From IMG/VR virus record IMGVR_UViG_3300027917_000018, positions 138,976 through 202,975 of that record: a stretch of DNA of 64,000 bases. The stretch is one strand, 5' to 3'. Positions 8,462 to 43,910 of the stretch are shown one piece after another. The stretch comes from a virus (taxonomy: Duplodnaviria; Caudoviricetes). The notes beneath the pieces were generated by a model. The model ran no database searches, had not been told where the DNA came from, and was given only the letters and a program-made list of their open reading frames with translations. Within the stretch, counting starts at the first letter, position 1; each line of letters begins with the position of its first letter. The position numbers were made by a program, and so were the translations under genes.

Positions 8462-8848
8462 ATGAATACGACAAAAGCACTGAAATGGGCGGTTTTTTGC
8501 GTGTTGACTCTTCCCGTGCTCCTATTCGCGCAGGACGAGACCCCACTCGCCGAGCTGCCTAAAAGCACGCAGGAGTTTTGGGTCCTGGGCATCGCTGTTG
8601 TTTCCCCGCTGATCGTTCAGGGGATCAAGTGGGCGGTTCCCAAGATTCCGAAGCTTCTGCTACCAAGCGTCACACCCTTCATCGGCATGGCTTTGGGCTA
8701 TGGGCTGAATGCCCTGGGCACGGCTGACCTGGGATGGGTGGATGCTGCGCAAGCGGGCGCTCTGGCCGTCTTCGTTCGCGAGGTCGTCAACCAAGCGGTG
8801 AAGTCTCGGCAGGCGGCTGACACACCGGCCCAGCCTCCTTCTGGCTAG
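8462..8848 (+). CDS. small multi-pass membrane protein (holin-like)
   Basis: Signal-like N-terminus plus 2-3 hydrophobic helices; holin function is inference. Confidence 0.5.
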   Translation: MNTTKALKWAVFCVLTLPVLLFAQDETPLAELPKSTQEFWVLGIAVVSPLIVQGIKWAVPKIPKLLLPSVTPFIGMALGYGLNALGTADLGWVDAAQAGALAVFVREVVNQAVKSRQAADTPAQPPSG

Positions 8849-9878
8849 GGATTTCAACTGAACCTTCATCCTCCCCTGCGGGTGGCTCATCCGCAGGGGA
8901 TTTTCGTTTACGGTCTGTTCGGTTCAATTCATCGGCGAGGCTGTACTGCCTGATCTTGTTGTAAAGCGTTTGTCGCCCGATCCGCAGCCGCTGCGCTGCG
9001 TGCTTGATGTTGCCGTGGCAGCCTTGGATGGCCTCGATGATAAGCCTGCGCTCCGCCAGCTCAATCGGCCCCAGTGTATGGCCCTGTTCCGCCTTTTCCT
9101 GCGCCGTTTTGTCGAGGGCAGCCTGGGCGACCGGAGGGCTGAATCCGTCGGGCGGTAGGGAGTGTCGGTAGCCCAAAGCCAGCACGCGTTGTATTTCGTT
9201 CTCCAACTGCCGGACGTTGCCAGGCCATTCGTAAGCCAGTAGAGCTTCCTTGGCTTCCTTACCGAGGTAGACGGGTTCGGTAACAGCCTGTTCCTTAGCG
9301 TACCAATTGAGAAACGTTTCGGCCAGGGGCAGAATGTCATTTCTTCGATTGCGCAGCCGGGGCAGAAAAAGCGTGACGGCACCGATGCGGTAGTAAAGGT
9401 CAGGACGTAAACGTTTTTGTTCGAGCAGCATTTCTGGCAGGTTGCTCACGGCGCAAATCAGCCGAAAGTTAATGGCGTCCTCCTTGGTGCTCCCGACGCG
9501 TCGGACTTTCCTTTCCTGAAGGACCCGCAGCAGCTTTGACTGTGCTCCCAGCGGCATTTCGCTCAGCTCGTCCAGGAAGAGGGTGCCGCCATCCGCTGCC
9601 CCGATCAGGCCCGTGCGGTCGTTGCTGGCCCCAGTGTAGGCACCACGGGCCGCGCCGAACAGCTCGCTCTCGACGAGGTCTTTGGGCAATGCCGCGCAGT
9701 TGACACAGATCATCGGCTGTTTGCGCCGAGGGCTGTTCTCATGGATATGGCGTGCAACGACTTCCTTGCCCGTTCCGGTCTCGCCGCAGAGCAGGATGGG
9801 AATGCCGCTGGCAGCAATCTGGTTGCAGGTGGCTACCAGAGCTTGCATTGCTGAACTGGCGAATACGGGCTTGTACAT
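8787..9878 (-). CDS. sigma54-dependent transcriptional activator (AAA+ plus Fis HTH, no receiver domain)
   Basis: GETGTGKE Walker A, ESELFG, GAYTGA loop, FLDE Walker B, WPGNVRQLEN, C-terminal GNIKHAAQRLRIGRQTLYNK HTH. Confidence 0.95.
   Translation of the reverse strand: MYKPVFASSAMQALVATCNQIAASGIPILLCGETGTGKEVVARHIHENSPRRKQPMICVNCAALPKDLVESELFGAARGAYTGASNDRTGLIGAADGGTLFLDELSEMPLGAQSKLLRVLQERKVRRVGSTKEDAINFRLICAVSNLPEMLLEQKRLRPDLYYRIGAVTLFLPRLRNRRNDILPLAETFLNWYAKEQAVTEPVYLGKEAKEALLAYEWPGNVRQLENEIQRVLALGYRHSLPPDGFSPPVAQAALDKTAQEKAEQGHTLGPIELAERRLIIEAIQGCHGNIKHAAQRLRIGRQTLYNKIRQYSLADELNRTDRKRKSPADEPPAGEDEGSVEIPSQKEAGPVCQPPAETSPLG
8872..8905 (+). terminator. intrinsic terminator
   Basis: tcccctgcgg/ccgcagggga 10-bp stem followed by ttttc, 24 nt after a stop at a convergent junction. 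Confidence 0.65.
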
Positions 9879-9885
9879 AGGTTAA

Positions 9886-10338
9886 ATGATACCGCGAGAC
9901 GTTTTCTACGATCGACTCGGCAAGCACTGCCAGCAGTGTGAGCACTGGGCCAACGTCTGCCTTAAGGGCCATGCGTCCAGCTCGCCGGAGGGCTGCCCGA
10001 TCTACAAGTTTCCGCCGATCCAGGGAGCCCAATACGCGTCCGTGCGCGAAGCCCCGTCGCCACCGGCCTTCGCCAATTGCTGCGGTAACACTATCCAAGA
10101 ACTGGAACCGTTAACCTGGCCGCAAGTTTTGGCGCATTTTGCCGAATCCATGACGAAGTGGATCGCGTCGGGAATGAAGGTCGTCAAGAAGGACACGCAC
10201 ATGAGCCGCTACGGCACCTGCAAGCTCAACACGTGCGGGGAATTCCGGGATTTCTACTGCCACCACTGTAAGTGCATCGCTTACTGCAAGGCCAAGCTGG
10301 CGACGGAAACGTGCCCGAAGAAGCTCTGGCCTACATGA
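9886..10338 (+). CDS. Cys-rich metal-binding hypothetical protein
   Basis: About 14 Cys including CxxC pairs and terminal KxxxxxxCPxxxW. Confidence 0.6.
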   Translation: MIPRDVFYDRLGKHCQQCEHWANVCLKGHASSSPEGCPIYKFPPIQGAQYASVREAPSPPAFANCCGNTIQELEPLTWPQVLAHFAESMTKWIASGMKVVKKDTHMSRYGTCKLNTCGEFRDFYCHHCKCIAYCKAKLATETCPKKLWPT

Positions 10339-11086
10339 CTTCGAGCTGGGTGCCGTCTTCCGTCGGGCTGATGTAGATTTCGCCGTAGGAATGAGCAGCT
10401 GCCGTGAGCCGCTCGCCCGCCTCTTCATCGTCCGTGAAATCGCCATCCCAAAAGCCAGCGCCGTGGCCGTTGCGGGTTAGCCAGAAGTCGTGCCCGGCCC
10501 GTGACGGATCGCCTTCGATGTCCCGCCAGTTTTTCTTCCAGAAGTCTTCGCATTCAGCCCGGAGCGTCTCTCGGGCCGCGTCGGTGAAGTCCCCGGTGTC
10601 GTAATCACGGTCCAGTGGGTGGCCGTGGCCTTCAGGGTCAACGGCGTCGTTGTTGCTGCTCCAGATGGCTGTCTCCAAGTATTGCTCGAAGAATTCTTCG
10701 GGCATTTCGGGCACGTGCGGGGCGTGCTTTTTGAGAAACTCACGGGGCGTTTCGGCCTCTACGACATCGCTGATTTCCCCGACGCCATGTCCGGTTGAGC
10801 TGACGAGAAAGATTTTGTTTACAGAAGGGCCTATAAGCCTTGGGTAGCCAAGCGGCTTGCCTAAGAGATTGTGGGCAATGCTCTTGGCGTCCTTGTAATC
10901 TCGTGTCGACCCATTGTCCGGCGTTCCACGGCCCCAATACCAGTGGGGTATGCCGTAGGTCCAGTAATAGGGAGTGCCTTCAGCCACACCGACCAGGAAA
11001 AACCGTGGATTGCGAAACTTGTGCTTGAGCAAGTCCCTGGGCGATTCCCCGGCCAATCCGTCGATGATAGCCCGTGCCCGGCTCAT
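10331..11086 (-). CDS. leader-family protein A (putative head-packaged), two modules
   Basis: Start MSRARAIIDGLAGESPRDLLK (ATGA overlap); internal VVEAETPREFLKKHAP; acidic C-terminal module with FWLTRNGHGAGFWD. Confidence 0.7.
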   Translation of the reverse strand: MSRARAIIDGLAGESPRDLLKHKFRNPRFFLVGVAEGTPYYWTYGIPHWYWGRGTPDNGSTRDYKDAKSIAHNLLGKPLGYPRLIGPSVNKIFLVSSTGHGVGEISDVVEAETPREFLKKHAPHVPEMPEEFFEQYLETAIWSSNNDAVDPEGHGHPLDRDYDTGDFTDAARETLRAECEDFWKKNWRDIEGDPSRAGHDFWLTRNGHGAGFWDGDFTDDEEAGERLTAAAHSYGEIYISPTEDGTQLEVM

Positions 11087-12093
11087 AGGTCGCGCTCCCG
11101 CTTTACGTCGTGGGCGTAGTAGTCCAGCTTGAAGCCCATCTTTTGCGCCAGCCGCCACGGCGCTTCTTCGCGGGTCTCTGGCGGAAGGTAGCCCCTGTGG
11201 CGCAGCCAGTCGAAGGCGCGGGTCAGGTAGTGGTCGCCGTAGCCTCCGGCCATCGGGAGCGTGTGAACCAACTCGCCGTTTACATAAATGTCCGCCGTGT
11301 TGTAGGTGTTGCCATAGGTTCGGCGAAACCACCGCCTGCCGATGACGGCGACTTCGCGCAGGACAAAGTGCTTTTTCAGAAGGTCGCGGGCCGACACCGC
11401 CTCCTGTTGGGGCCTGGGCGGCAGTAGCGGCGCAAAGATGTTTACGAACTGCTCCTTCGGGAGAAGCCGCGACATCATGCTCATCAGGTCATAAATGTCG
11501 CCCAGCGGGATTGGCTTTTCGCCGGATATGTCGTACCAGACCTTGTCCTTTTTCTCCCAAAAAGAGCCGCCGGATGGCAGATCGATGCGCCGCCCGGTCC
11601 ATTCAGTCTTGCGCTTGAAAAACTCACGAGGATTCACGGCCTCGACGACTTTGGGCCTGGTCTGCTCACGCGGCCAGAGCACGATGCGCCATTCACGAGG
11701 CCCGGCTACGCCGTCCACCCTACCGCTTCGCTGGCCTTTGCTGGCGTTGGGATACATTTTTGAGGTGTACCTGTGCATTTCGTCGGCGATGACCTGCTCT
11801 TCCTCATCCGTGAAATCCAGCAAGTCGGGATGGTTGGGATACCGCTGGAAGGTCTGCTCGAAGCCTAAAGCGTCTTCCACATCGTTGAGCAAACCGTACT
11901 CGCCGTCTTGTGGGAACACCGAGCCGTCGTCCCCAATGCCGACGGGCACGTATTCGGTCTGGTCATCGTCCATCATCGGCGGCTTACGGATCGCCAGATA
12001 GTAGCCTTCTCCGCCAGGTGGCAGCAGACGCGGCAGCCGCTTGATAATGGATCGCGGGCTCTCAGCCTCAATGATGTCGCGTGCCCGGCTCAT
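11083..12093 (-). CDS. leader-family protein B (putative head-packaged), three modules
   Basis: MSRARDIIEAESPR; internal VVEAVNPREFFK and QEAVSARDLLKK. Confidence 0.7.
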   Translation of the reverse strand: MSRARDIIEAESPRSIIKRLPRLLPPGGEGYYLAIRKPPMMDDDQTEYVPVGIGDDGSVFPQDGEYGLLNDVEDALGFEQTFQRYPNHPDLLDFTDEEEQVIADEMHRYTSKMYPNASKGQRSGRVDGVAGPREWRIVLWPREQTRPKVVEAVNPREFFKRKTEWTGRRIDLPSGGSFWEKKDKVWYDISGEKPIPLGDIYDLMSMMSRLLPKEQFVNIFAPLLPPRPQQEAVSARDLLKKHFVLREVAVIGRRWFRRTYGNTYNTADIYVNGELVHTLPMAGGYGDHYLTRAFDWLRHRGYLPPETREEAPWRLAQKMGFKLDYYAHDVKRERDL

Positions 12094-12329
12094 TTTTGAG
12101 CGTAAGCCTTTTTGATCGCGTCCGGCGGATCGGCGGCCATGAGGCGCATGGTGCTGCCATCGTCGAAGGTGACGATGTGCATGACTTCGGGCATCAAGTC
12201 CGAAGCGGGCGTGTTGGGCTGGGCGACCTCGGCGCTTACGGGCCGCCTGGCGCGGCGGGCCGCCTGGCTAAAGCGCTTGATTTTGTCCCGAGCGGACTCA
12301 GCCTCCAGGATGGTGCGCGCACGGCTCAT
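12090..12329 (-). CDS. leader-family protein C
   Basis: MSRARTILEAESARDKIK; ATGA overlaps. Confidence 0.7.
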   Translation of the reverse strand: MSRARTILEAESARDKIKRFSQAARRARRPVSAEVAQPNTPASDLMPEVMHIVTFDDGSTMRLMAADPPDAIKKAYAQK

Positions 12330-12586
12330 TTCCACTTTCCTGGCGTCAGCAGCTTCATGCGCTCGATCGCCTGGATCAGTTCCTCGGGGTCTAGGTTTTC
12401 ACCAAGCGCTTCGAGCCACGACCGGATGCGCTCCCGGTAGTCGGGATTTTTGCCTTTCCAGACCGGCCAGTTGTTCATCCAATCATGCCGTCCGATGACC
12501 TGTTCAACGAAGTCGGCAGCGAGGTCTTCAGCCTCGCTGATGCGCGGCGGGTGATAGTGGAGTGTAGGGTCCATCTGTAGGTACAT
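12326..12586 (-). CDS. hypothetical protein
   Basis: First gene of the leader-family operon; start uncertain (12586 or 12574). Confidence 0.5.
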   Translation of the reverse strand: MYLQMDPTLHYHPPRISEAEDLAADFVEQVIGRHDWMNNWPVWKGKNPDYRERIRSWLEALGENLDPEELIQAIERMKLLTPGKWK

Positions 12587-12588
12587 AC

Positions 12589-13026
12589 GTGAGCGGCGAG
12601 GCACAGACTTGCCCAAGGCGAATGCAGGAAGTAGGGCCTTGGAAGAAGGCAGAAAACGTGGACTCATGGGAAGCCCGCGACGGCCACCGCTTTTGCTCAT
12701 TCTGCGGGTGCCTTCACCCGGACGAGTTCCTGGAGATGGCCGAGTCGGGCGAGCAAATTATCCCGACCGACAAGAGCTACAAGGTCTATGTAAGAACAAT
12801 GGGCACAGGTGTTTGCAGCATGTGCCGTGGCTCGGGCAAAATGGAGGATGGCCGCAAGTGCCCTGTATGCCAGGATGGTCGAGCCTGGAGCGGCCCGCAG
12901 CTCAAAGCCTATTTTCAGCACTTTAGCGAGGAGCAGGCTCAGCGGTTCACACGGTTGCACAATGAGAGACGGCTGATCATGGCGCATCCTGGTCACTTTT
13001 ACGTGAAGCCGTTCTTCTGGAAGTAG
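12589..13026 (+). CDS. zinc-binding hypothetical protein
   Basis: CSFCGCLHP motif plus DnaJ-like CxxCxGxG...CxxC insert. Confidence 0.65.
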   Translation: MSGEAQTCPRRMQEVGPWKKAENVDSWEARDGHRFCSFCGCLHPDEFLEMAESGEQIIPTDKSYKVYVRTMGTGVCSMCRGSGKMEDGRKCPVCQDGRAWSGPQLKAYFQHFSEEQAQRFTRLHNERRLIMAHPGHFYVKPFFWK

Positions 13027-13028
13027 AC

Positions 13029-13814
13029 ATGGCAGCGAACCCTTGTGGCATTTTACAGGCACTGGTCGCGTGGCAGATGTCCGTCATCGCCTCGCTGAAC
13101 AAGAAATTTGCCGCGCTTCAGCGCCTGACTGAGCTGTTGGAGCAGCTGGGCGACATCTCCAACGCCCTGCCCGCCAGCCTCGATGAGCTGGTGCCGGTCA
13201 TCGACATCGACCTCGACGTTTACACGGCGCTTCAGGTCAACTGTCCTTTCCTGAACCTGCCACCGGCCACGACCGAGGACCTCAACGCGCTGAGAAGCCG
13301 CGTAAATGCGGCCTACGCGCTCCTGGCGCGGGACATCCTGAAGCATCCCTGGATCAGAATGAACAAGGTTCAGGCCATGCTCAACGACTATCAGCAGAAG
13401 GTCAATTACCCGTACGGTGAGGACTACATCCGCTGCTTGAACAGCGTATGTGCGGCGATCGGTGCCGTGGGCGGCTTTCTCTCCAACATGAGCCAGGTCA
13501 ACATCGTGAGCGAGCTGGCCAACTTTGGAGAGAACTTCGTGCGAAACAGCGGACGCGTGCTTTCGGACGCGGCCAAGATCAAGGCCGAAGATGCACTCGA
13601 CGTTTACAACGGCCTGCTGGACCTGCGGGACGATACGCTCCAGGACTTCCAGCAGCCCGGCTCGCCGCAGCGGCCTCCGTTGCGCCTGGGCCGTTACGAG
13701 GAGCCCGATTTCACTTTCCAGGACGATGCGTGGCGCACGAGTTTCCCCGATGGTTTTCCGTCTGGCGCGATTACCAACGTGGGCAGCGTGATACCGCCGT
13801 CGGCGCAGCAATAA
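13029..13814 (+). CDS. helical hypothetical protein
   Basis: Long ORF in operon context; no recognised motif. Confidence 0.6.
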   Translation: MAANPCGILQALVAWQMSVIASLNKKFAALQRLTELLEQLGDISNALPASLDELVPVIDIDLDVYTALQVNCPFLNLPPATTEDLNALRSRVNAAYALLARDILKHPWIRMNKVQAMLNDYQQKVNYPYGEDYIRCLNSVCAAIGAVGGFLSNMSQVNIVSELANFGENFVRNSGRVLSDAAKIKAEDALDVYNGLLDLRDDTLQDFQQPGSPQRPPLRLGRYEEPDFTFQDDAWRTSFPDGFPSGAITNVGSVIPPSAQQ

Positions 13815-18348: not shown

Positions 18349-18678
18349 ATGGCTGACCGCGTACAGCTTCCACCTTATTCGATGTGGGCCAAGACTCCCG
18401 CCTATCCGGCGACGGCGGACGGGCAGAACATCGTCGTGTTCGGGATGTTGCAGGACGTGATCGTGCCCGACCCGACGGATGTAACCTACAAGGTGCCGGT
18501 GGGAGCGCGCTACCGCCTCGATTTGATTTCGCAGAGCTTTTACGGCGTTCCCGATCTGTGGTGGGTGATTGCGCGTGTAAACGGAATTCTCGATCCGGTG
18601 GTCGGAGCCACGCCGGGTGCGACTATCCGAGTGCCCACTAAGGCTCGGTTGGCCAGGGAAGGTCTGTTGAGCGTCTGA
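18349..18678 (+). CDS. baseplate wedge LysM-like protein (T4 gp53-like)
   Basis: YKV...RLDLISQSFYGVPDLWWVIARVNGI.DP...G..IRVP. Confidence 0.85.
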   Translation: MADRVQLPPYSMWAKTPAYPATADGQNIVVFGMLQDVIVPDPTDVTYKVPVGARYRLDLISQSFYGVPDLWWVIARVNGILDPVVGATPGATIRVPTKARLAREGLLSV

Positions 18679-18694
18679 GCCAGGAGCAAGCGAT

Positions 18695-19174
18695 ATGGGA
18701 TTACTGACTGAGAACAAGCTGAAATCGGTTATCGAGCTGCCCATTGCCCTGCCCGCCACGAAGGTCAGGCAGGGCGACTGGCTGATCGCCGCCAGCGTTA
18801 AAATCAGCGGTCAGCAGCGGCTATCGATCCGCCACATGACATTCCAGTTGTCGGAGGCGAATGTGGATGTGGGCGACATCGAGCCTGGCAATAAGGTCAT
18901 CCCGAACCTGGGGCTGGCCTACGTCGTTCTGCGCAAGGACTACGTCTCGGGTGTTCCGGGCGGCAGTGGTGCGCTCGATTCACTTTATCTCGACGATATT
19001 GGCTCCACGACAACGAGCACCGTATCGGCGCTCTACAGCGAGGCCGGAACGTACTCGATTCTCGTGGCCAACAACATGCAAGCTGTTTCGGGCGTGACAA
19101 TTCCGACGAGCACGTCGATCGATTTCACGCTGGTTCTAACCGGACACATTCGCCTGGAGCTGATCGGTGCCTGA
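18695..19174 (+). CDS. virion structural protein, paralog of 20021 ORF
   Basis: LPIALPAT...Q.LSIRH.T shared with the 20021 ORF. Confidence 0.6.
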   Translation: MGLLTENKLKSVIELPIALPATKVRQGDWLIAASVKISGQQRLSIRHMTFQLSEANVDVGDIEPGNKVIPNLGLAYVVLRKDYVSGVPGGSGALDSLYLDDIGSTTTSTVSALYSEAGTYSILVANNMQAVSGVTIPTSTSIDFTLVLTGHIRLELIGA

Positions 19175-20024
19175 TCGACCCGTCAAAGCTTTCCTGAGCC
19201 GGGCGCATTACAGCGCCGAGCTTTGGGCGTTCACCGAACATGAGCTGTCCGGCGACAATGCCAGGCGATGCCAGCGGGACGGCCAATTCTTTTACGAGCG
19301 GTTGGGCGGTGAGCCCCTGCGTGTCACTCGCGGTGGCGGGGTGCCGGGCGCAACGGGCCAAGATCAGAAAGCGGTTCAAGAGTTCGACAACGCAATGCGG
19401 GCTCTTTATCGCGGGCGTTCTCAGGGCCAGGAGATTCAGGGGCCGGTGTTGGTTAAGGCTTACGATGACCCCAACAACCTGGCCGAAAATGAAATGGATG
19501 AGCTAGCCACTGAATGGCGCTGGGTAAAGGCCACGCATGACGGTCGGTTCATTGGCTGGTACGCCGCCGAATCCGACCCACGAGCTTTCTTCAGCAAGTT
19601 TTCGCGGGAGCGCGTCGCCGAGCATGTTCAGAAGAATTTGGAAGGCTGGGGATGGACGCAGCAGTACGATCTGATCACCGTTCGCTACGACTTTCCGGGG
19701 CTTTTTATCAACTGGCGCGGTGATGGTGCCCAAGCCCACGCCAGGATTAAGCTCAAGATCAAACCTCCAGCGGTATTTCGGGATTTGTTTGTGAAGCAGA
19801 CCGTCATCGGAATTGGGGACGTGGACCAGGTCTACATTCAGCTGATCGACGTGGACCAGGCTCTTCCGCCGATTGGGGCTTGGACCAAGACCTTCTGCAC
19901 CAACCCCGAAAAGGACGTGCCGACATACGAGCAGGCCCGGTCCGCCTTCGAGATGCTGAGACGCCAACTGGAAATGCGTGCCATCAACAAAGGCCAGATG
20001 ATTTTTGGATGGGGACAAGCATGA
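19167..20024 (+). CDS. hypothetical protein
   Basis: Long ORF coupled within the structural operon. Confidence 0.6.
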   Translation: MPDRPVKAFLSRAHYSAELWAFTEHELSGDNARRCQRDGQFFYERLGGEPLRVTRGGGVPGATGQDQKAVQEFDNAMRALYRGRSQGQEIQGPVLVKAYDDPNNLAENEMDELATEWRWVKATHDGRFIGWYAAESDPRAFFSKFSRERVAEHVQKNLEGWGWTQQYDLITVRYDFPGLFINWRGDGAQAHARIKLKIKPPAVFRDLFVKQTVIGIGDVDQVYIQLIDVDQALPPIGAWTKTFCTNPEKDVPTYEQARSAFEMLRRQLEMRAINKGQMIFGWGQA

Positions 20025-20440
20025 GCCGATACGTTTCAGAGAGCTATTTCGAGACGGTGCGGACGCTACCGGTTGCGCTGGCGCAAACGGAGCTGAAGCG
20101 CGAGAACTCGCTTGTGATCTGTCGGCTGCCGCTGGCGTTGAACCAGACGCTGGAGCTTCGGTCTCTGACACTGCACATTATCAAAATCTTAACCCCAGGG
20201 GTGAAGCCTTTCAGCGAGGTCACCGTCAACGGGATCGCCAGCGTCGGCCTTCAGTTTGCTGGAATGGCCACCGGCATGATTGGCTCGGTCAACCTGGAGA
20301 ATGTTGGGTCGGCGACCTGGAATCCCTACGAGCCGGTGTTGATCACGGCTCCGGGCACTTATCAGGTAACCGTCCGAAACCACACGAACAACGTGGACAT
20401 GGCCATTGCCGTGACCGGCAGCGTGAAGATTTTCAGTTGA
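20021..20440 (+). CDS. virion structural protein, paralog of 18695 ORF
   Basis: LPVALAQT...Q.LELRSLT; ATGA overlap at 20021. Confidence 0.6.
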   Translation: MSRYVSESYFETVRTLPVALAQTELKRENSLVICRLPLALNQTLELRSLTLHIIKILTPGVKPFSEVTVNGIASVGLQFAGMATGMIGSVNLENVGSATWNPYEPVLITAPGTYQVTVRNHTNNVDMAIAVTGSVKIFS

Positions 20441-20441
20441 T

Positions 20442-23216
20442 ATGCCAGCGCCCTATCCACCAGTACCGTCACAGCTCGAAGCCGCCCTGCTGGTTGTCCT
20501 GCGGGATTCGGTGACCTGGGAATCCGCGTTGGCTCCGATGGATTCATCGGGAACCTATTCGGGCACGCTTACTGAGCCCGGTAGCACCGGCCCGTTCAAT
20601 GCCCTGGAGTACCAGCGGCGGGACCGGGAGCTGGCGTGGCTGGACACCCGCAACGCAGCTGCCGTGGTCGAGGTCAGTCTGGAAGTGGCGGACGTGTGGA
20701 ATGCCTCTGCGCTCCGCCCGATCATGCAGGGGCCGCAAATCGGCCACATCACCTACAACGAGCAAGCGTCTGCGCAGGGGCTGCTCAGCAAGGTGGTCCA
20801 CGTCACCAACGCCTCCGTTCCCAGGGATGCGCTCAGCACGGACAAAGACCTAGTAGGGCGTGATCTGCTCGTTTACGAGACCCTTTACAACGCCTGCGCA
20901 AATCTCTTTGTGCCGCCGCCCATCACCAGCAGCGGCTCGGAAATCCCCGGCGTGACGGCCTGGGCGACCGGGTACGGCTCGGCGCAGCGCAAAGACATCA
21001 GTACAGCGCTGCCGCTTGGACGCGGCCTGTTTGAGGACCCGGACAAAAACCTGACCGACCGGGACAACCAGCTTGCCGGGTACGTGGCGCAGCTCTGCGT
21101 GCTTCTTCGCGATCCGTTTGCCTACGCCAATCGGGTCTACATGGCCGTTTACGGTGCCGACAGCCGCGAGGTCGAAACTTACAGCCTGGTCGAGCCCGTA
21201 TTCGTGGCGGGCTACTCGTATCGGGAGGGCGACGAAATCTACTACGAGGGCACGATCTATCGGGTCAAGGCGGGTGTCGGCAGCACGACGGACGTGCCCT
21301 GGACGAGCCCGTGGGCCTGGGAAACGGTTTCCGAGCCCAACCAGCGCATCTGGATCGCGCCGCCCTACCTGGCCGGGCGCAACCGCCTGGTCTACGACGT
21401 GGCCGAGCGCACGCTCCAGTGGATTCCCGAAGGAGGAACAGCGGTTCACGTGCCGCAGCTGGTTGCCCTGTCGATTCCGGGCGTTTTCTCGGGGCAGACG
21501 TTGGCTACTTTGGCCCAGGTGCCGGAGCGCAAGGACGGCCAATACTGGAGGCAGAAGGCGGGCCGCATTATTCCCAGTGGCGGCACGCTGACCGATAGTC
21601 TGTCGATCGAGAATACGGCCAGCTTCCAGGTTCAAGGCTTTACGATTCAGAACACAGGCGCGTCGATGACCGTGCCAGGTCAGGGCACCGTCAATTTCTT
21701 CGACGACAGTAACGCCCAGGCGAACGTCGGCTATGCCAGCGTCAAAGTCGCGGCTATGGTCCAGCCCAATTCGACCGTGGAGATGCCCGGCGGCCAGAAC
21801 GTCGAGGGTGTTTACGGCACGCTGGGCGGCGTTACGTTCGGTGCTCCGAGCAAGGTTTCCTACGACATCGGGCTTCCGGCGACGCAGTGGACCGTGGAGT
21901 TCGACTACACCAATTTGAGCGGTAGCACGAGCGGCTTCAAGATCAAGGCCGACCTGGACGGTGCGTTGGTCTTCGACGACACCACGCCATTTTACTTCAA
22001 CGATCAGGACGGCTTTCCGCTTACCAACGGCGAGCTAGTGACCAGCCGCCCGTTTGTAATTCAGCCAACGGGAGGCAAGCAAAGCTTCGGCGTCGAATGG
22101 ACGGGCGGTGGCGGGGACCTGCACATCCGCAACATTCGGTTCCGCAGCGACGCGACCACCGAGGGCCGCTACCGCATGCTTGGCACGATGGCCGGATCGG
22201 TTTCGGTCTGTGACGTTCACGGGGTCGACGGCGTTTACGACGTGGTCAGTTGGGACTTCCAGGTTATCGAGACTACCCCGGCCACGATGCTGCTCAATTA
22301 CGAGAAGGACCCGGAGCTGCCGATTCGGTTCCTGCGCTTTGACGTGGCCACCTTCGGCACGGCAAGTCCGACGCCCAATGTCGCAGGTTTCGAGCGATAC
22401 CGTAACGACTGCCTGACGCGGGCGATGACCAGCGCCCAGCAGTCCTTTAATGAAAACATGGCCCTGGCCGTCGAAAGCGGCACGATCCCAGCCTTCATGT
22501 CCACGGGCAGCGTGTGGGATACAGCCGCTTCGGAGCGGTGGATGGCCTTCATGGAATCGGCGGAGCCGCGCCTGCGCGAGTTGGAGCCTGTCACCGAGAT
22601 TGTCGAAAATCGGCAGTACGTCGTGTCCACGGGCTCAGTGGTTTATCAAGGTCAGAGCTACGGGGTGGGAGAAACTTTCTACGGAGCGGGAACCTCATGG
22701 TTCTACTTCGCCAGCCAAGGCACACTGACCCAGGTCGGAGCCTGGCGCAGGCCGCGATCCACTAGCATCGGGCGGCCCGCCATTGTTCCGGCGGGCGTAT
22801 ATTGGGACAGCAACGGCGGAACGGTCGCGGTGGCTAACGGGCCAGAAATGACTTATCCGCAATTGGCGTCGCTTCAGCCCTGGATGATTTGGGCTGGATT
22901 TTACGTTTCCCAGTTCGAGTTTTACCTGCCGCTTCCGTCGTACCGTCAGCCGCCCAAGATTTACCCACCGCCGGGGCCTCCGGGTGGCTATATCGAGGGA
23001 TTCGCTGGATTCAGCGACACGTTCGAGGGCAACGACACGGGTGCCGAGACGCTTATCGGCGGCAGTGGTTGGGACGGAAACTGGGCCGCGATCGAAAATA
23101 TCTACCAGTCCCATGTCATCGCGACGGACGACATGGCCTACGCCCACGGTACGCCGCTGGGCAGCATGAGCAGCGCCGAAGGGCTGTCGTCCTCGGGGCC
23201 AACCGCATACCCATAA
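20442..23216 (+). CDS. large tail/baseplate protein
   Basis: 924 aa; YREGDEIYYEGTIYR CBM5/12-like segment, beta-sandwich middle, C-terminal GGSGWDGNW repeat-like segment. Confidence 0.65.
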   Translation: MPAPYPPVPSQLEAALLVVLRDSVTWESALAPMDSSGTYSGTLTEPGSTGPFNALEYQRRDRELAWLDTRNAAAVVEVSLEVADVWNASALRPIMQGPQIGHITYNEQASAQGLLSKVVHVTNASVPRDALSTDKDLVGRDLLVYETLYNACANLFVPPPITSSGSEIPGVTAWATGYGSAQRKDISTALPLGRGLFEDPDKNLTDRDNQLAGYVAQLCVLLRDPFAYANRVYMAVYGADSREVETYSLVEPVFVAGYSYREGDEIYYEGTIYRVKAGVGSTTDVPWTSPWAWETVSEPNQRIWIAPPYLAGRNRLVYDVAERTLQWIPEGGTAVHVPQLVALSIPGVFSGQTLATLAQVPERKDGQYWRQKAGRIIPSGGTLTDSLSIENTASFQVQGFTIQNTGASMTVPGQGTVNFFDDSNAQANVGYASVKVAAMVQPNSTVEMPGGQNVEGVYGTLGGVTFGAPSKVSYDIGLPATQWTVEFDYTNLSGSTSGFKIKADLDGALVFDDTTPFYFNDQDGFPLTNGELVTSRPFVIQPTGGKQSFGVEWTGGGGDLHIRNIRFRSDATTEGRYRMLGTMAGSVSVCDVHGVDGVYDVVSWDFQVIETTPATMLLNYEKDPELPIRFLRFDVATFGTASPTPNVAGFERYRNDCLTRAMTSAQQSFNENMALAVESGTIPAFMSTGSVWDTAASERWMAFMESAEPRLRELEPVTEIVENRQYVVSTGSVVYQGQSYGVGETFYGAGTSWFYFASQGTLTQVGAWRRPRSTSIGRPAIVPAGVYWDSNGGTVAVANGPEMTYPQLASLQPWMIWAGFYVSQFEFYLPLPSYRQPPKIYPPPGPPGGYIEGFAGFSDTFEGNDTGAETLIGGSGWDGNWAAIENIYQSHVIATDDMAYAHGTPLGSMSSAEGLSSSGPTAYP

Positions 23217-34087: not shown

Positions 34088-34095
34088 TTACGGTG

Positions 34096-35343: not shown

Positions 35344-36026
35344 CGGCACCGGTCGAACAGGTCCACGATCAGCCGTTCCAAGGCTTCCGCCAGGGACTTT
35401 TCCCGCACGTGGCGCATTTTCCACACCACAACTTCCGCCAGCCCCACACCCGGACAGTCCGCCAAGTCTTCGTAGCCGTAGGCGGTCACGAACGGCACGA
35501 GCGGGTGGTACCGGCGGCAGTTGCAGTAATCCATCGTCGATCCGTAGGTCCGCAGCTCGATGTTCCGTGAGTTGGCCCGGTGGACATGGCTGACCCGGAT
35601 CAAGGCGTTGGCGATGTTGGCCGCCACGAATCGATCCATGAGCGTGCTGAAGCTCAAGACCAGCTCCTTGTAGGTCTCGTGCTCCGGGCTGGAGACGGCG
35701 GCCTGGATGGCGTCGATTTGGGCCGCCAGGGGCAGGCAGAGCTTCTTTTCCCACCGGGTCTTGACCTTGTCCCCGGCTTTGCGAAAAAGCAGCTTGCCGA
35801 ATTCGCGCACGAGGACAGCCTGCTGGCGCTCCGGGTCCAGCTTGGCGAAACTGGGGTAGACGTTGACCTCCGGCTTACCCGCCACATTGAGCGAGGCGTC
35901 GGCCCCGCTGGACACCTTGCTGGGCTTCCACTGCATCTCGCCCCATTGGCGGGTTACGTGGTTGCATCGCCCGACCTGGGATTGGTTCAGGGCGGTTCCG
36001 GCTGCTTGGACTGCTTCTTCGTACAT
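35340..36026 (-). CDS. hypothetical protein with degenerate zincin-like motif
   Basis: VLVREFGK in place of HExGH. Confidence 0.55.
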   Translation of the reverse strand: MYEEAVQAAGTALNQSQVGRCNHVTRQWGEMQWKPSKVSSGADASLNVAGKPEVNVYPSFAKLDPERQQAVLVREFGKLLFRKAGDKVKTRWEKKLCLPLAAQIDAIQAAVSSPEHETYKELVLSFSTLMDRFVAANIANALIRVSHVHRANSRNIELRTYGSTMDYCNCRRYHPLVPFVTAYGYEDLADCPGVGLAEVVVWKMRHVREKSLAEALERLIVDLFDRCR

Positions 36027-36820
36027 CAGTTGACCCTCATGATCACCGCTCCGCTGTGGAGGGTATCGTAGTTGCCGTCATAAGTATTCAGGAAGTGGGC
36101 GAAGCCGTCTGTGCTGACCGCCTCTTTGGCCGCTGCGTCGATGTCGATGCCGACCAGTTCGATGGCCTGTTTTCCAGCGTCCTCCTTGCCGTAGATGTCC
36201 TCCAGGTATTCCATACCGTCGAAACGGTCTTCCTGGGAGCTAATCCAGCTTTCCTTGGCTTCGTCGACCAGCTCTGAGTAGTTTTCGACCTTCACAAGCT
36301 CGGGATCGCCGTCCTCGTCTTCCTGCTCGGTCCAAAGGTCATCCTCATCCAGATAGCCCTCTTTTTGCAGGAACTCAGCCCACTCGTCCTCGTCGTCGTA
36401 CATCTGCTCCAGGTTGTGATCCCGGTAGTCGCTCCAAAGAAGGCTGTCGAGCCTTTTGGTATCGATGTGGCTGCGCAGCCAGTCTTGGTTGAACAGTTCG
36501 GGCTCGTCCCTGAGCTGCTGTTCGACGTAGCGGAGCGCGGTTGTTTCTGCTTCGTCCTCGTCCTTGTAGATTTCCCATTCCATGTTGCCGCTGGACACGC
36601 GCATCATGGCATCATCGTGGGTCTCGGGTTCGACTTTGGTCTCCAGGGAGACCTGGGCTTCTCTAGCGGCCACCTGCTGCCAGTCCTCCAAGTCGTCCCA
36701 AATCTCGTTCCACGCGTCCGACATGACGGTGTAGCTTTTGGCTACCCGCTTGATGAAGTCTCGCGGGCTTTCCTTGCCCTCCAGGACGGCGGTGGCTAGC
36801 TCTTTGGCTAGTAGCTCCAT
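36026..36820 (-). CDS. leader-family protein D, very acidic
   Basis: LAKELATAVLEGKESPRDFIK; D/E-rich; DGFAHFLNTYDG. Confidence 0.7.
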   Translation of the reverse strand: MELLAKELATAVLEGKESPRDFIKRVAKSYTVMSDAWNEIWDDLEDWQQVAAREAQVSLETKVEPETHDDAMMRVSSGNMEWEIYKDEDEAETTALRYVEQQLRDEPELFNQDWLRSHIDTKRLDSLLWSDYRDHNLEQMYDDEDEWAEFLQKEGYLDEDDLWTEQEDEDGDPELVKVENYSELVDEAKESWISSQEDRFDGMEYLEDIYGKEDAGKQAIELVGIDIDAAAKEAVSTDGFAHFLNTYDGNYDTLHSGAVIMRVN

Positions 36821-37335
36821 ACCAAGCTCCTGTTTTGTACGTCCCACAGCGCCTTGTCATTGTCGTCGTTGCGCACGAGAACGTAGCGGGTTTGGATGCC
36901 GTCAAAGTTAGGAGGTTCGTTCGGGTCGCCGCTGACGATCGAAAGTTTACCTTCAGCCTCCGCGCCCTCCAGGTCCATGTCTTCCCAAGGCCATACGCCG
37001 ATGTCGGCGGTACTTCCTGGATGGCTGCCCAAAAATGTAAACGGCGGGCAATACTTGCGTTGGATATAACTGTACAGGTCCGTCTCAACTTCGACCAGGT
37101 CCCAGTCCTGTGCCTTGGCCTCGTCGTAGTTCGCTTGGTATTCGGAGGCGGCTCCGGGGTCAAGCTCCTTGAGCAAACCGAGCCCAGCGTCGATCAAGTC
37201 GTCGGTGTCTAAGGTGCCCCTAGAAAGCTCCCATCCTACGGGCAGGTAGTTGACGCGGGGCAGCTTGCCCAAGACCCGCTTAGGCGATTCTCCGTCCTCC
37301 AGGACTGCCCTGGCCAATTGTTCGGCAGGTCTCAT
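36808..37335 (-). CDS. leader-family protein E, acidic
   Basis: MRPAEQLARAVLEDGESPKRVL. Confidence 0.7.
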   Translation of the reverse strand: MRPAEQLARAVLEDGESPKRVLGKLPRVNYLPVGWELSRGTLDTDDLIDAGLGLLKELDPGAASEYQANYDEAKAQDWDLVEVETDLYSYIQRKYCPPFTFLGSHPGSTADIGVWPWEDMDLEGAEAEGKLSIVSGDPNEPPNFDGIQTRYVLVRNDDNDKALWDVQNRSLVWSY

Positions 37336-38165
37336 CGACGTTCCGGTGCGTACTTCCAGGGTTTGGCCTTGCGGATGGCTTTGGGGTCGGTTTCCCGCTT
37401 GAGGCGTTCGGCGTCGGCCATCAGCTCATGCTTGCGCTGGACCCGTTTGAGCCAATGAAGTCGATCGAGGTAGCTTTCGGACAGCAGTCCGAGTCGAACC
37501 AAGTGCTCCAAATTAAGCAGCATCTGGTTGGGGTCGCGCATGCCACGACGCCAGCGGCGCGGCGGATCGTAAGTCAGAATCCGAATAGCGCGCTCGGGCG
37601 TGATCACATCCTTGCCATCCAGGTGAATCGTGCCGTCGGGCTTGGCGGTGCCGCCGTGAAACTCCAAGGTGCCGTCGGGTTTGATCTTGTCCCCGTTGCC
37701 GAAAGGAATAGCGAACCAGCGTGGGTGCTTTCGCTTGTACTCCGTCCAAATCTTGCCCCGCATTTCATCCGGCCAATGGTAGTTGGCCCAGTGCCAATCC
37801 CCGCCACCGAAGCCGTGCCATCCGCTGATGTTTCTGCCGTAAACAAACCAGTTGTGGGGCAGGAAGGAATTAAGGTGCTGCTTGGTGGTGACGGTCTGCC
37901 ACCGGCCCACGTTGACTTCGACCGTACCGTCCGGCTCATAGGACAGGATGTCGGTTTCGTGGTAGCGCAGCGCGTACTTTCGCTCGGCAGGCCAGTACAG
38001 GTGCCTGATGTTGCGGTGTTCGCCTCTGCGGAATTTGGCCCCGTATCGGTCCCAATCGCGCCAGCGCTTAAACTGGGGCCAGGCGTGCGGGTAGCGAGGC
38101 GCGTGCTTCTTCAGAAACTCGCGGGGCGTCAGCTCGGCTTCCAGAATGTCGAAAGCGCGGCTCAT
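37332..38165 (-). CDS. leader-family protein F, basic
   Basis: MSRAFDILEAELTPREFLKKHAP; YHETDILSYEPDG...GRWQTVTTKQHLN. Confidence 0.7.
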   Translation of the reverse strand: MSRAFDILEAELTPREFLKKHAPRYPHAWPQFKRWRDWDRYGAKFRRGEHRNIRHLYWPAERKYALRYHETDILSYEPDGTVEVNVGRWQTVTTKQHLNSFLPHNWFVYGRNISGWHGFGGGDWHWANYHWPDEMRGKIWTEYKRKHPRWFAIPFGNGDKIKPDGTLEFHGGTAKPDGTIHLDGKDVITPERAIRILTYDPPRRWRRGMRDPNQMLLNLEHLVRLGLLSESYLDRLHWLKRVQRKHELMADAERLKRETDPKAIRKAKPWKYAPERR

Positions 38166-38686
38166 CAATCCAAATCCGGGTTGTACTCGCGCAAGTAGAG
38201 CGCGACATAGTAATAAAGGTTGAAGTCGCCCATCTCGACCATTTCAGCGACCTTTTCCTGGACGGCTTCATTGTACTCCTCGTCGGTCTCGAAGTCGTCT
38301 CGATCCAGTTCGCCCTGAGCTTCTTGGTCCAGCTGACGAACAATTTCGTCGTGGGCGCTGGGCTCGGTGTCTTCAATCTCCTCGACAGTGTCGAGCTTCC
38401 AGTAGGAGGCGGCTTGCTCCAGGGCGTCAGAAGCGGCTTCCGCCGGGTTGTCCCCGGCCCCGACGTAAACATCGTCCCAGTTAGTGAAGGCGGTACCGCG
38501 TCCCTGAAAGTAGTCGGAATTGCATAGGCCGATCTGTTCCCACTCGTATTCCTGCGGGACTTTGTCGTAGCGCTGGTGATGAGGCGTGTGGGGCGCGTGC
38601 TTTTTGAGGAAGTCACGTGGGTTTTCGCCCTCGTCGGCTTCCAACACGGCCCTGGCTAACTGTCGGGCTGCGCTACGGACATCCAT
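38165..38686 (-). CDS. leader-family protein G, acidic
   Basis: ARQLARAVLEADEGENPRDFLKKHAP. Confidence 0.7.
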   Translation of the reverse strand: MDVRSAARQLARAVLEADEGENPRDFLKKHAPHTPHHQRYDKVPQEYEWEQIGLCNSDYFQGRGTAFTNWDDVYVGAGDNPAEAASDALEQAASYWKLDTVEEIEDTEPSAHDEIVRQLDQEAQGELDRDDFETDEEYNEAVQEKVAEMVEMGDFNLYYYVALYLREYNPDLD

Positions 38687-40672: not shown

Positions 40673-40678
40673 TTGTTC

Positions 40679-41182
40679 CTAACTACTCTCCTTGCGTCGG
40701 CGTTCAGCCTCGGCGATCTGAGCCTGGATAATCGGGGCTAGGCGCGGCGGATCGTAGCTTGGCCCTTTCATCCATTTGCCGTCCTCCCGCAGGAACCCGT
40801 CGATGAACTTGGTCATGTTGGAGCGGTGGACCTCTTCCCAGCCAGGTTCCAGCTCCAGCCCCAGGGCGATGGCTGTGCCGACGGCGAAAACGAGGATGTC
40901 CAGGACGGCGTCGTAGGCGTCGCGGAGGTTTGTCTCGGGTTCCAGCTGAACGGACGCGTAGGGCGATGGGTTGGCGTCCACGCCGTAAAAGCGGACCCCA
41001 TTGGCCCGGTTTCGTTCCATCCGAATGTCCACGTCCAGGGCGTCGCACAGCTCCAGCAGCTCTTCAGCAAGCGTGCGGCAGCGCAGAGCGCAGACATCGC
41101 GGCTGGGCATGCCGGGCATGTCCGGCACGTCCTGGTGGGCGTTTCGCATGAATTCTCGGATTTGTTCTTGGGCTTTTTTCAT
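40679..41182 (-). CDS. MazG-like / PRA-PH nucleoside triphosphate pyrophosphohydrolase
   Basis: LAEELLEL, DAVLDILV, EEVHRSNMTK, REDGKWMKG. Confidence 0.88.
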   Translation of the reverse strand: MKKAQEQIREFMRNAHQDVPDMPGMPSRDVCALRCRTLAEELLELCDALDVDIRMERNRANGVRFYGVDANPSPYASVQLEPETNLRDAYDAVLDILVFAVGTAIALGLELEPGWEEVHRSNMTKFIDGFLREDGKWMKGPSYDPPRLAPIIQAQIAEAERRRKESS

Positions 41183-42807: not shown

Positions 42808-42833
42808 CGCTGCGTTAGAACGGTATTTAGAGC

Positions 42834-43238
42834 GTGAATCGGCTGTACCCGAACGCAAAAGAGCTTTTCGCGACCAAGCAGCTTAGCTGGACGAACGACG
42901 CCATCGTCTGCATCCTGGTAGACACTGGCGTTTACACCTACAGCGACGCGCACCAAACCCTGGCCGATATTCCCTCCACAGGAACCGTGGCGGTTTCTGG
43001 CACAATGACCGGTCGCGTAGCACCTTTAGGGGTGTGTGATGCCGACGACGTGTCATACCCGATTGTCCCCATCGGCCCGAATGTTGAGGCGTGTGTGCTG
43101 GCTGTTAATAGCGGCACGGTCGCGACGAGTTTCCTTGTGGCCTACCTGGATCAGGCCGCCGGTCTGCCCTTCAGCCCGGACGGCGGCCCGGCGGTCATCG
43201 CGTGGGACAACGGGACGAACCGCCTCTTTGCCTTGTAA
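42834..43238 (+). CDS. tail-associated structural protein
   Basis: ILVD..Y...H..LADI...GVCDADD...LVAYLD..GLP..P.G...W pattern typical of phage tail genes. Confidence 0.6.
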   Translation: MNRLYPNAKELFATKQLSWTNDAIVCILVDTGVYTYSDAHQTLADIPSTGTVAVSGTMTGRVAPLGVCDADDVSYPIVPIGPNVEACVLAVNSGTVATSFLVAYLDQAAGLPFSPDGGPAVIAWDNGTNRLFAL

Positions 43239-43254: not shown

Positions 43255-43482
43255 ATGCCTCGCGAGAGCTATGAATTGCAGGCGGCTGCGCTAAAAAAGC
43301 TGTTGGAGAAGGCCGACGTGGATTCCTCGGACCTTCGCCACTTGCGCAACGCGGTCCGTAATCTTGAGCATCTGGCTGCGCTGCGGAGGGCCATCGTGGA
43401 AGGTGAAATGGACCCCGACGTGCTTTCCGACAAGATCATCCATATTCTGCACTTGCCGCGAGAGGACGTAGTTAAGGCGTGA
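43255..43482 (+). CDS. small helical hypothetical protein
   Basis: MPRESYELQ; GTTCT 7 nt upstream. Confidence 0.55.
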   Translation: MPRESYELQAAALKKLLEKADVDSSDLRHLRNAVRNLEHLAALRRAIVEGEMDPDVLSDKIIHILHLPREDVVKA

Positions 43483-43910
43483 CCGGCAAAGAACTGGCTG
43501 GACGTGTCCTCGAAGGCGAATCTCCCCGCGAGATTTTGCGCCGGATTGCGCGTACCAACCCGCCCCAGCCGCCGATGTCCGAGGTCGATTTTGATGTGGA
43601 GGCTGAAGAGGAATATGACCGGCCTGAAGGGCACTTCACCGAACCCGAAGACGTTGAGTGGGTTCGGGACCAGATCGAGGCAGGCAATGAGTGGGGCTGG
43701 TGTTCCGCGCACGTGATCGCGACCTGGACTGATCCCCTCACTTACCGGACCTATCAGGGCGACCAGTACCTGGGCGGCTGTTCCTACCGCAGCAAGCAGG
43801 ACTTCATGGAGCCTGGCGGCTACTATGACGACATGAAGGAAGAGGCTTACCAGGACCTGTTGCGCAACATCGAGGACACCTGGGAGCCGCCCGAGGACGA
43901 CGAGGAATAG
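43479..43910 (+). CDS. leader-family protein H, acidic
   Basis: MTGKELAGRVLEGESPREIL; YLGGCSY...GGYYDDM. Confidence 0.7.
   Translation: MTGKELAGRVLEGESPREILRRIARTNPPQPPMSEVDFDVEAEEEYDRPEGHFTEPEDVEWVRDQIEAGNEWGWCSAHVIATWTDPLTYRTYQGDQYLGGCSYRSKQDFMEPGGYYDDMKEEAYQDLLRNIEDTWEPPEDDEE

What the first reader, a model, noticed from the sequence alone, without database searches (positions are those of the whole stretch)
10331..12093. Leader motif recurs inside ORFs: candidate protease-processed polyproteins and a module-shuffling hotspot
Seen in sequence: ORF B carries the motif three times (N-terminal IIEAESPR, internal VVEAVNPREFFK, QEAVSARDLLKK) and ORF A twice (internal VVEAETPREFLKKHAP). TPREFLKKHAP is identical in A (DNA ~10715-10755) and F (~38095-38130) and nearly so in G (~38590-38625), with similar DNA 27 kb apart. 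Inference: formerly separate cargo genes fused or swapped by recombination at the leader, then separated again by the head protease.
Basis: partly seen in the sequence, partly recalled or inferred. Interest (0 to 1): 0.7.

Follow-up and report, generated by a model that had tools for sequence, protein, structure and literature searches.

The report
Leader-tagged module proteins of T4-like phage
Two genes of an uncultured 203-kb T4-like phage are chains of small protein modules, each preceded by a short peptide that also starts about 16 other genes of the phage; the peptide looks like phage T4's "load into the head and cut here" tag, but neither cutting nor packaging has been measured.

Summary
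ORF A (10331-11086, minus, 251 aa) has the motif at its start and once inside. ORF B (11083-12093, minus, 336 aa) has it at its start and twice inside.

The consensus is MSRARxILEAE(S/T)PRxFLKK. It is conserved as a peptide, not as DNA. About 20 strong copies lie in the genome, 16 at gene starts.

A's internal copy is highly significant. B's two internal copies are weak by a leave-out profile, but they sit exactly at module borders defined by homology.

Three of the five modules occur as separate genes elsewhere: A2 and B1 with the same leader, B3 with or without one. A1 and B2 are orphans. Structure models show independent domains joined by low-confidence linkers at the motifs. Related phages carry the A2 and B1 cassettes at other loci.

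Most likely (about 0.45) the peptide is a T4-style capsid-targeting and prohead-protease site, and the fused forms are cleavable precursors. This is inferred only: the phage has a T4-type S77 protease, and some leader operons carry the box found before structural genes.

Recombination at the leader has no DNA support. This scan reported the same leader before in neighbouring windows of this genome and similar systems in many other T4-like phages. It is a new variant of a known kind.

The parts
10331..11086 (-). ORF A, 251 aa: leader, module A1, internal leader, module A2
   Evidence: ATGA overlap with the ORF B stop
11015..11086 (-). ORF A N-terminal leader MSRARAIIDGLAGESPRDLLKHKF (residues 1-24; Asp where the other copies have Glu)
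   Evidence: 36.4 bits
10769..11014 (-). Module A1 (residues 25-106), basic, no relatives found
   Evidence: pLDDT mostly below 60
10715..10768 (-). Internal leader copy DVVEAETPREFLKKHAPH (residues 107-124)
   Evidence: 31.5 bits with a profile of N-terminal copies only; modelled as two short helices of middling confidence
10334..10714 (-). Module A2 (residues 125-251), acidic, widespread domain (phrog_1915)
   Evidence: (pLDDT above 90)
11083..12093 (-). ORF B, 336 aa: leader, B1, internal leader, B2, internal leader, B3
12034..12093 (-). ORF B N-terminal leader MSRARDIIEAESPRSIIKRL (residues 1-20)
   Evidence: 42.1 bits
11653..12033 (-). Module B1 (residues 21-147); separate genes with the same leader exist in relatives
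11608..11652 (-). Internal leader-like copy KVVEAVNPREFFKRK (residues 148-162)
   Evidence: weak by profile (6.7 bits); lies where B1 relatives end; inside the pLDDT<50 stretch 118-163
11410..11607 (-). Module B2 (residues 163-228), small domain, no separate relatives found
   Evidence: (pLDDT 72-77)
11365..11409 (-). Internal leader-like copy QQEAVSARDLLKKHF (residues 229-243)
   Evidence: weak by profile (8.6 bits); same peptide at the same distance before B3 in many relatives
11086..11364 (-). Module B3 (residues 244-336), widespread domain (phrog_6246)
   Evidence: (pLDDT 97-98)
12090..12329 (-). ORF C, small leader-bearing gene upstream in the same operon (the ATG at 12329 gives MSRARTILEAESARDKIKRF)
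37332..38165 (-). Gene F, leader with TPREFLKKHAP identical to A's internal copy
38165..38686 (-). Gene G, leader-bearing acidic protein (NPRDFLKKHAP)
36026..37335 (-). Genes H2 and H, leader-bearing acidic proteins in the same operon as F and G
43479..43910 (+). Gene I, leader-bearing acidic protein preceded by a TAGTTA box
40680..40685 (-). TAGTTA box 7 nt before gene Lx, the first gene of the operon that holds G, F, H2 and H
   Evidence: the same box precedes portal, baseplate hub, tail fibre and a head-module gene

Best explanation
ORF A and ORF B are chains of 'leader plus module' cassettes. The leader has two parts. The first is about nine residues ending in (I/V/L)-x-E: M-S-R-A-R-x-I-L-E. 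After 2-6 variable residues comes (S/T/N)-P-(R/K)-x-(F/I/L)-(L/I)-K-(K/R).

The leader starts about 16 genes of this T4-like phage and sits between modules in A, B and some larger proteins. The most likely mechanism follows phage T4. The N-terminal leader takes the protein into the assembling prohead core. The phage's T4-type (S77) prohead protease then cuts after the Glu of each copy, which frees the modules. The modules travel in the head and enter the next host with the DNA.

Shown: the motif, its positions, the independence of A2, B1 and B3, the cassette shuffling between related phages, and the presence of the protease.

Inferred: targeting, cutting, packaging and injection.
For: - Twenty strong copies lie in the genome, all between 122 and 183 kb. 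Sixteen are at gene starts on otherwise unrelated proteins.
- Synonymous differences between copies show selection on the peptide.
- The first part ends in I/V/L-x-Glu in 17 of 20 copies and is about as long as T4's 10-residue CTS. T4 gp21 cuts after L/I-x-E (PMC9026906).
- The phage encodes an S77 prohead protease fused to a scaffold-like tail, next to the major capsid protein.
- Module borders coincide with the motifs. B1 relatives end at query residues 149-156, B3 relatives start at 226-248, and A2 starts at about 125.
- Separate genes carry the same leader: A2 in P0002, P0008 and P0059; B1 in five proteins.
- A2 and B3 fold as confident independent domains, with low-confidence linkers at the motifs and low pTM.
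- About 25 of 61 fused B3 relatives from other phages keep 'LEAEDPKxFL' directly before B3, in proteins up to 1097 aa. The internal copy is therefore retained repeatedly.
- A's internal copy has lost MSRAR but keeps VVEAETPREFLKKHAP almost perfectly.
- The TAGTTA box that precedes portal, baseplate hub, tail fibre and a head-module gene also precedes gene I and the operon with G, F, H2 and H.
- A2 relatives occur in proteins with InPase (PF18823), a domain of phage polyvalent proteins thought to be virion-packaged (PMC5512222).
Against: - There are no protein data of any kind.
- The D-C-B-A operon that holds ORFs A and B has no TAGTTA box and no recognisable promoter, so late expression is not shown for these two genes.
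- Both internal copies in B have Val in place of the second Glu and score weakly. One has Q-Q-E instead of a hydrophobic P3. ORF A's own leader has I-I-D, and in T4 an Asp at that position blocks processing (PMC9026906).
- The best-conserved part (xPRxFLKK) lies after the presumed cut and would stay on the product. T4's CTS does not explain this.
- Many leader-bearing modules are very acidic (A2 -23, G -29, H -48), unlike T4's basic internal proteins.
- In cultured phages A2 and B3 are small leaderless genes in early-type regions.
- The head-module gene and the capsid protein only look as if they share the leader; the profile score is at noise level.
Confidence: 0.45

Rival explanations
1. Fusion relics without processing. 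The leader works only at the N-terminus, whatever its role. The internal copies are leftovers of gene fusions that now serve as flexible linkers, and ORFs A and B act as intact multi-domain proteins.
For: - B's internal copies score at noise level against the N-terminal profile and have lost the conserved Glu.
- All internal copies lack the MSRAR part.
- Adjacent leader genes overlap by ATGA, so small indels can fuse them.
- The linkers are modelled as disordered, as any fusion joint would be.
Against: - A's internal copy is kept almost perfectly over 16 residues (31.5 bits).
- Many unrelated fused B3 proteins from other phages keep the same peptide before B3. Neutral relics would not persist that way.
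Confidence: 0.25
2. A shared docking peptide that is not a capsid address. The peptide tethers many host-takeover or anti-defence modules to one hub protein of host or phage. The proteins act in the cytoplasm and are not packaged.
For: - The most conserved part (xPRxFLKK) is not needed for a T4-type cut.
- The modules are acidic, like DNA-mimic anti-restriction proteins.
- Their relatives in cultured phages lie in early-type gene arrays or terminal repeats.
- There is no structural-gene box before the A/B operon.
Against: - The structural-gene box precedes gene I and the G-F-H2-H operon.
- The first part has the length and the I/L-x-E ending of T4's CTS.
- In L011 the B1 cassette directly follows, with overlap, a large conserved gene in a same-strand block.
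Confidence: 0.2
3. Internal translation starts. The internal motifs mark nested genes translated separately from GTG codons inside ORF B.
For: Both internal copies in B have GTG at the 'EAV' position, with GGAGG or GAGG just upstream.
Against: - The spacing from the purine run to the GTG is only 2-3 nt.
- A's internal copy has no start codon nearby (GTC GTA).
- The frames are continuous and codon bias is uniform.
Confidence: 0.03

Closest known systems
Phage T4 capsid-targeting sequence (CTS) on internal proteins IPI, IPII, IPIII and Alt, removed by prohead protease gp21 (PMC9026906, PMC3012670, PMC12373910)
   Same: - A short N-terminal peptide is the only thing shared by otherwise unrelated small proteins.
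- It has similar length and ends in I/L-x-Glu.
- The phage has a T4-type S77 protease beside scaffold and capsid genes.
- The gene sets vary between related phages.
   Different: - No sequence similarity to MKTYQEFIAE.
- The leader here has two parts, and the better-conserved second part lies after the presumed cut.
- About 16-20 tagged genes instead of a handful.
- Copies also lie between modules of one protein.
- Many modules are strongly acidic rather than basic.
- Nothing has been measured.
Processed head and ejection proteins of giant phages phiKZ, 201phi2-1 and SPN3US (PMC5694885, PMC10052503)
   Same: Many head-internal proteins, some in paralogous families with conserved N-termini, are cut after Glu by a T4-related protease, sometimes at several sites.
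   Different: - Their propeptides are mostly longer than 100 residues.
- Their motif is S/A-x-E.
- All reported substrate cuts other than the protease's self-cleavage remove N-terminal propeptides, rather than separating modules.
Polyvalent proteins of phages and conjugative elements (Iyer et al. 2017, PMC5512222)
   Same: - Unrelated effector-type domains are strung in one polypeptide and predicted to be delivered with the DNA.
- A2 relatives are fused to InPase, one of their domains.
   Different: - ORFs A and B have none of the hallmark domains by Pfam.
- They have no peptidase of their own.
- A repeated, conserved linker peptide is not part of that description.
Mobile promoter/stem-loop cassettes (PeSLs) that mediate modular shuffling in T4-type genomes (PMC2839356, PMC4122927)
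   Same: Small variable genes are swapped between related T4-type phages at recurring boundary sequences.
   Different: The recurring boundary here is a coded peptide with synonymous variation, not a conserved DNA element. Flanking DNA is unrelated.

Membership tests
T4-type CTS / internal-protein system | A short N-terminal peptide shared by otherwise unrelated proteins | tested here: met
   Sixteen N-terminal copies on unrelated proteins. The modules have different or no PHROG families.
T4-type CTS / internal-protein system | The peptide ends in the prohead-protease motif L/I-x-E | tested here: inconclusive
   Strict L/I-x-E in about 11 of 20 copies, or 17 of 20 if Val is allowed at P3. ORF A's own leader has I-I-D and B's second internal copy has Q-Q-E. 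This protease's specificity is unknown.
T4-type CTS / internal-protein system | The genome encodes a T4-type (Peptidase_S77) prohead protease in the head module | tested here: met
   PF03420 at 73.8 bits and phrog_207 at E 1.4e-31, genome 17334-18998, next to the Gp23-type capsid gene.
T4-type CTS / internal-protein system | Late expression together with head proteins | tested here: inconclusive
   The TAGTTA box of structural genes precedes gene I and the Lx-to-M operon, but not the operon with ORFs A and B. No RNA run holds the sequence.
T4-type CTS / internal-protein system | The protein is present in the head and the propeptide is removed | not testable with these tools
   This needs virion mass spectrometry. 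The phage is uncultured.
T4-type CTS / internal-protein system | Sequence similarity to the T4 CTS | not tested
   No T4 sequence was fetched for alignment. From the CTS quoted in the literature there is no evident similarity beyond length and the x-E ending (own knowledge plus PMC9026906).
Polyvalent proteins (Iyer et al. 2017) | Two to 15 unrelated domains in one polypeptide of a phage or plasmid | tested here: met
   A has 2 modules and B has 3. A2, B1 and B3 are independent by homology and by fold.
Polyvalent proteins (Iyer et al. 2017) | Hallmark domains (MuF, MPTase, ART, ParB-like, InPase, LPD families) | tested here: not met
   No Pfam family in ORF A or B at E 0.1. Only relatives of A2 carry PF18823 or PF18789.
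PeSL-type DNA shuffling cassettes | A conserved DNA element at cassette borders | tested here: not met
   Identity is confined to 33 coded bases with synonymous differences. Flanks are 18/60 and 14/60, and the longest exact run is 8-14 nt.

The most novel reading that the evidence does not exclude
The leader may be a two-part address used by a wide clade of uncultured T4-like phages. The first part would load the protein into the prohead and then be cut off. The second part (xP(R/K)xFLKK) stays on every released module and is the best-kept part of internal copies. It would be a separate signal, for example for holding the module on the core or DNA or for release through the tail. With this tag the phages would turn ordinary early anti-defence genes such as A2 and B3 into pre-made, injected proteins, singly or as cleavable chains.
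Probability: 0.2. Interest if true: 0.75.

Novelty: new variant of a known kind. Interest (0 to 1): 0.55.

Why it matters
If the reading is right, T4's small set of injected internal proteins is a minimal case. Here the repertoire would be much larger and modular: a portable peptide converts any small gene into head cargo, and fused cassettes are cut apart again.

That would give a sequence rule for predicting injected proteins, likely anti-defence factors, in uncultured phages. It would also supply a second, unrelated targeting tag for engineering phage heads.

It is directly testable by virion mass spectrometry in any cultured relative, or by co-expressing the protease with ORF A or B.

Tried and rejected
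- Complex prediction of the protease domain (residues 1-215) with ORF A residues 92-135 gave no verdict (score 0.00). It is no evidence either way.
- Fold searches found nothing meaningful. Foldseek on the ORF A model gave no match at E <= 0.001, and VIA-align gave best Z 4.9 for A2 and 4.5 for B3, below the level of a meaningful match. A profile of A2 has no relative among solved structures. Module functions therefore stay unknown.
- A scan of viral contigs with whole ORF B found no close relatives.
- Searches for separate A1 and B2 found none, though these were word-index searches with limited length ranges.
- No sigma-70-like promoter lies in 9800-13200.
- Sigma-54 promoter-like sites number 73 in the window against 80 expected, and none lies upstream of the A/B operon.
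- The GTTCTT at 12792-12797 (minus strand) is 91 nt from the nearest start. The word occurs at roughly the number I estimated for chance genome-wide, so I do not read it as the operon's promoter.
- A profile of the first half of the leader alone is too short to discriminate: real copies score <= 7.2 bits and shuffles reach 6.2. The resemblance of the head-module gene at genome 15828 (MNKSAIVAKLLGEAE) and of the capsid protein N-terminus (VLE...SPRGLWEAK) is therefore not evidence.
- No RNA holder was listed for the stretch.
- The second PF07068 hit (genome 111348) did not look like a vertex protein gene.

Full report
**Setting.** The window is bases 138976-202975 of a 202,975-bp virus record, estimated 89% complete. 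It is a T4-like phage. It has a baseplate wedge protein, a family A DNA polymerase and a DnaB-type helicase in the window. Elsewhere it has a Peptidase_S77 prohead protease fused to an acidic scaffold-like tail, next to a Gp23-type capsid gene. The runs that hold the sequence are marine sediment metagenomes.

**The observation.**
- ORF A is 10331-11086 on the minus strand (251 aa). The longer GTG-started frame in the ORF list is an artefact. The real start, MSRARAIID, overlaps the ORF B stop by ATGA.
- ORF B is 11083-12093 (336 aa). A small leader-bearing ORF C and an ORF D lie upstream on the same strand.
- A regular expression finds ten copies of the motif in the window. An iterated profile finds 20 strong copies in the genome, all between 122 and 183 kb.
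- Sixteen copies are at gene starts. The internal ones are one in A, two in B and one in a 756-aa protein just after a NUDIX module.
- The consensus is M-S-R-A-R-x-I-L-E-A-E-(S/T)-P-R-x-F-L-K-K, with 2 to 6 variable residues between the I-L-E part and the S-P-R part.

**Peptide or DNA.** Copies differ freely at synonymous sites. A's internal copy and F share TPREFLKKHAP exactly, yet 5 of 11 codons differ, all at third positions. The 60 bases on either side are unrelated. The repeat is therefore kept by selection on the peptide. Nothing in the DNA points to recent recombination at this place.

**How strong are the internal copies.**
- With a profile made only from the 16 N-terminal copies, A's internal copy scores 31.5 bits (E 1.8e-8).
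- B's internal copies score 6.7 and 8.6 bits. The best score in ten shuffled copies of the six-frame set was 13.1.
- On sequence alone, B's internal copies are not significant. Both have Val where the others have the second Glu.
- Their support comes from position. An exhaustive search with whole ORF B found separate proteins of 149-164 aa that match residues 1-151 and end there. It also found hundreds of proteins that match from residue 226-248 to the end.
- B3 relatives that have an N-terminal extension carry the same kind of peptide at the same distance before the GRRWF core.

**Modules.**
- A2 (residues 125-251) matches phrog_1915 over its full length. It has more than 1,300 relatives. Many are 140-150 aa proteins on their own and others are fused to various N-terminal parts.
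- P0002 is a 145-aa A2 protein that starts MSRARAIIEGISPRELLKN. P0059 and P0008 carry related leaders.
- B1 occurs alone, always with the leader, in five representative proteins.
- B3 matches phrog_6246. About half of the separate B3 proteins have no extension at all. Of those with 18-60 extra residues, 17 of 36 start with a leader of the type M-x-x-x-x-I-V-x-x-L-L-E, then an acidic stretch, then D-P-x-x-F-(L/V)-K.
- About 25 of 61 longer B3 proteins, up to 1097 aa, have 'LEAEDPKxFL' or 'DDPxxFVK' directly before B3.
- A1 and B2 have no relatives that I could find.

**Structure.**
- With alignments of relatives, AlphaFold gives A2 at pLDDT above 90 and B3 at 97-98. B2 is a small domain at 72-77. 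A1 and B1 have low confidence, as expected from their thin alignments.
- In ORF B the first internal motif lies inside a stretch below pLDDT 50 (118-163) and the second begins at another (227-232). In ORF A the internal motif is modelled as two short helices of middling confidence.
- pTM is 0.63 for A and 0.38 for B. There is no continuous fold across a motif.
- Neither A2 nor B3 resembles a solved structure convincingly.

**Comparison with related phages.**
- L008 is syntenic with window 35340-46274. It has orthologues of Lx, K, J, F, H2, H and M in order. It carries a separate, leader-bearing A2 gene between the F and H2 orthologues and lacks G.
- In this phage A2 is instead the second half of ORF A, 27 kb away.
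- In L011 and L013 the separate B1 gene follows the orthologue of the 924-aa protein (window 20442-23216) and precedes a glycosyltransferase-like gene.
- Leader-plus-module units therefore behave as cassettes that move between loci and are sometimes fused. The mechanism of movement is not shown.

**Expression class.**
- The word TAGTTA, usually followed by A-G-G-C and a start codon 2-8 nt later, precedes the portal gene, a tail fibre gene, the baseplate hub, the large baseplate wedge gene and the first gene of the head module.
- The same box precedes gene I. It also precedes gene Lx, which opens the operon containing G, F, H2 and H.
- It is absent before the D-C-B-A operon, for which I found no promoter of any kind.

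**Mechanism.**
- In T4 the first 10 residues of IPIII suffice for loading into the prohead core. Protease gp21 cuts after L/I-x-E. The internal proteins share nothing but this leader (PMC9026906, PMC3012670, PMC12373910).
- The first part of the present leader has the same length and the same ending, and the phage has the same protease family. This is the best available explanation, and it makes the fused forms cleavable precursors.
- It is an inference. Several things do not fit neatly:
  - The conserved second part would stay on the products.
  - Many modules are very acidic.
  - ORF A's own leader has Asp at the cut position, and in T4 an Asp there blocks processing.
  - A2 and B3 in cultured phages are leaderless small genes in early-type arrays or terminal repeats.
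- That last point can also be read the other way. This lineage may have added an address to ordinary early genes so that the proteins arrive ready-made.

**Relation to earlier work in this scan.** The same leader was reported before from two neighbouring windows of this genome, and similar systems from at least 70 other genomes. I did not rely on those notes. My tests agree with them on the motif and its distribution, and they leave cutting and packaging untested as before.

**Verdict.** This is a new variant of the T4 capsid-targeting theme, of moderate interest, and testable by virion proteomics.

Noticed in passing
window 8787-9878 (-): The phage encodes a sigma-54 enhancer-binding protein (Sigma54_activat at E 5.8e-62, AAA lid, Fis-type HTH) without a receiver domain. 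Sigma-54 promoter-like sites are not enriched in the window (73 found, 80 expected).
   Followed up: partly
genome 17334-18998 (outside the window; locus L025): The S77 prohead protease (residues 30-185) is fused to a ~350-residue acidic, Lys/Glu-rich tail that looks like a scaffold. Protease and scaffold may be one gene here.
   Followed up: partly
genome 120992-123259 (locus L027) and 134373-136622 (locus L028): Two larger leader-bearing proteins. The 756-aa one has a NUDIX module (229-338) right before an internal leader copy. The 750-aa one has an N-terminal leader, a DUF6166 module and two weaker internal copies (residues 381 and 630).
   Followed up: partly
window 61075-61311 (+) and 61345-62628 (+): Two frames after the DNA polymerase gene begin MSRARRLLERIL and MRRARAIVEMAL. 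They have only the first half of the leader, without the SPRxFLKK part.
   Followed up: no
window 32867-34087 and 34093-35343 (+): Two adjacent paralogous genes (406 and 416 aa) without family matches are conserved as a pair in the related phage L008. One is preceded by GTTCTT and the other by TAGTTA.
   Followed up: no
L011:1-3360: In the related phage L011, the large gene upstream of the orthologues of window 18349-23216 carries an intein (Hom_end_hint, Intein_splicing, HNH_3).
   Followed up: no
window 36026-38686 and 43479-43910: Leader-bearing proteins G, H2, H and I are extremely acidic (net charge -29, -17, -48, -24; pI about 4.1-4.25). This is the opposite of T4's basic internal proteins.
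   Followed up: partly
window 11001-11108 and 11238-11388: A 2025 sediment metagenome from a different study holds short contigs identical to these stretches, so the phage or a very close relative occurs outside the source samples.
   Followed up: no
window 12326-12700 (-) versus 12589-13026 (+): ORF D as listed overlaps the start of the divergent zinc-ribbon gene by about 110 nt. Its real start is probably the Met at 12586 or 12574, which leaves almost no intergenic space for a promoter of the D-C-B-A operon.
   Followed up: partly
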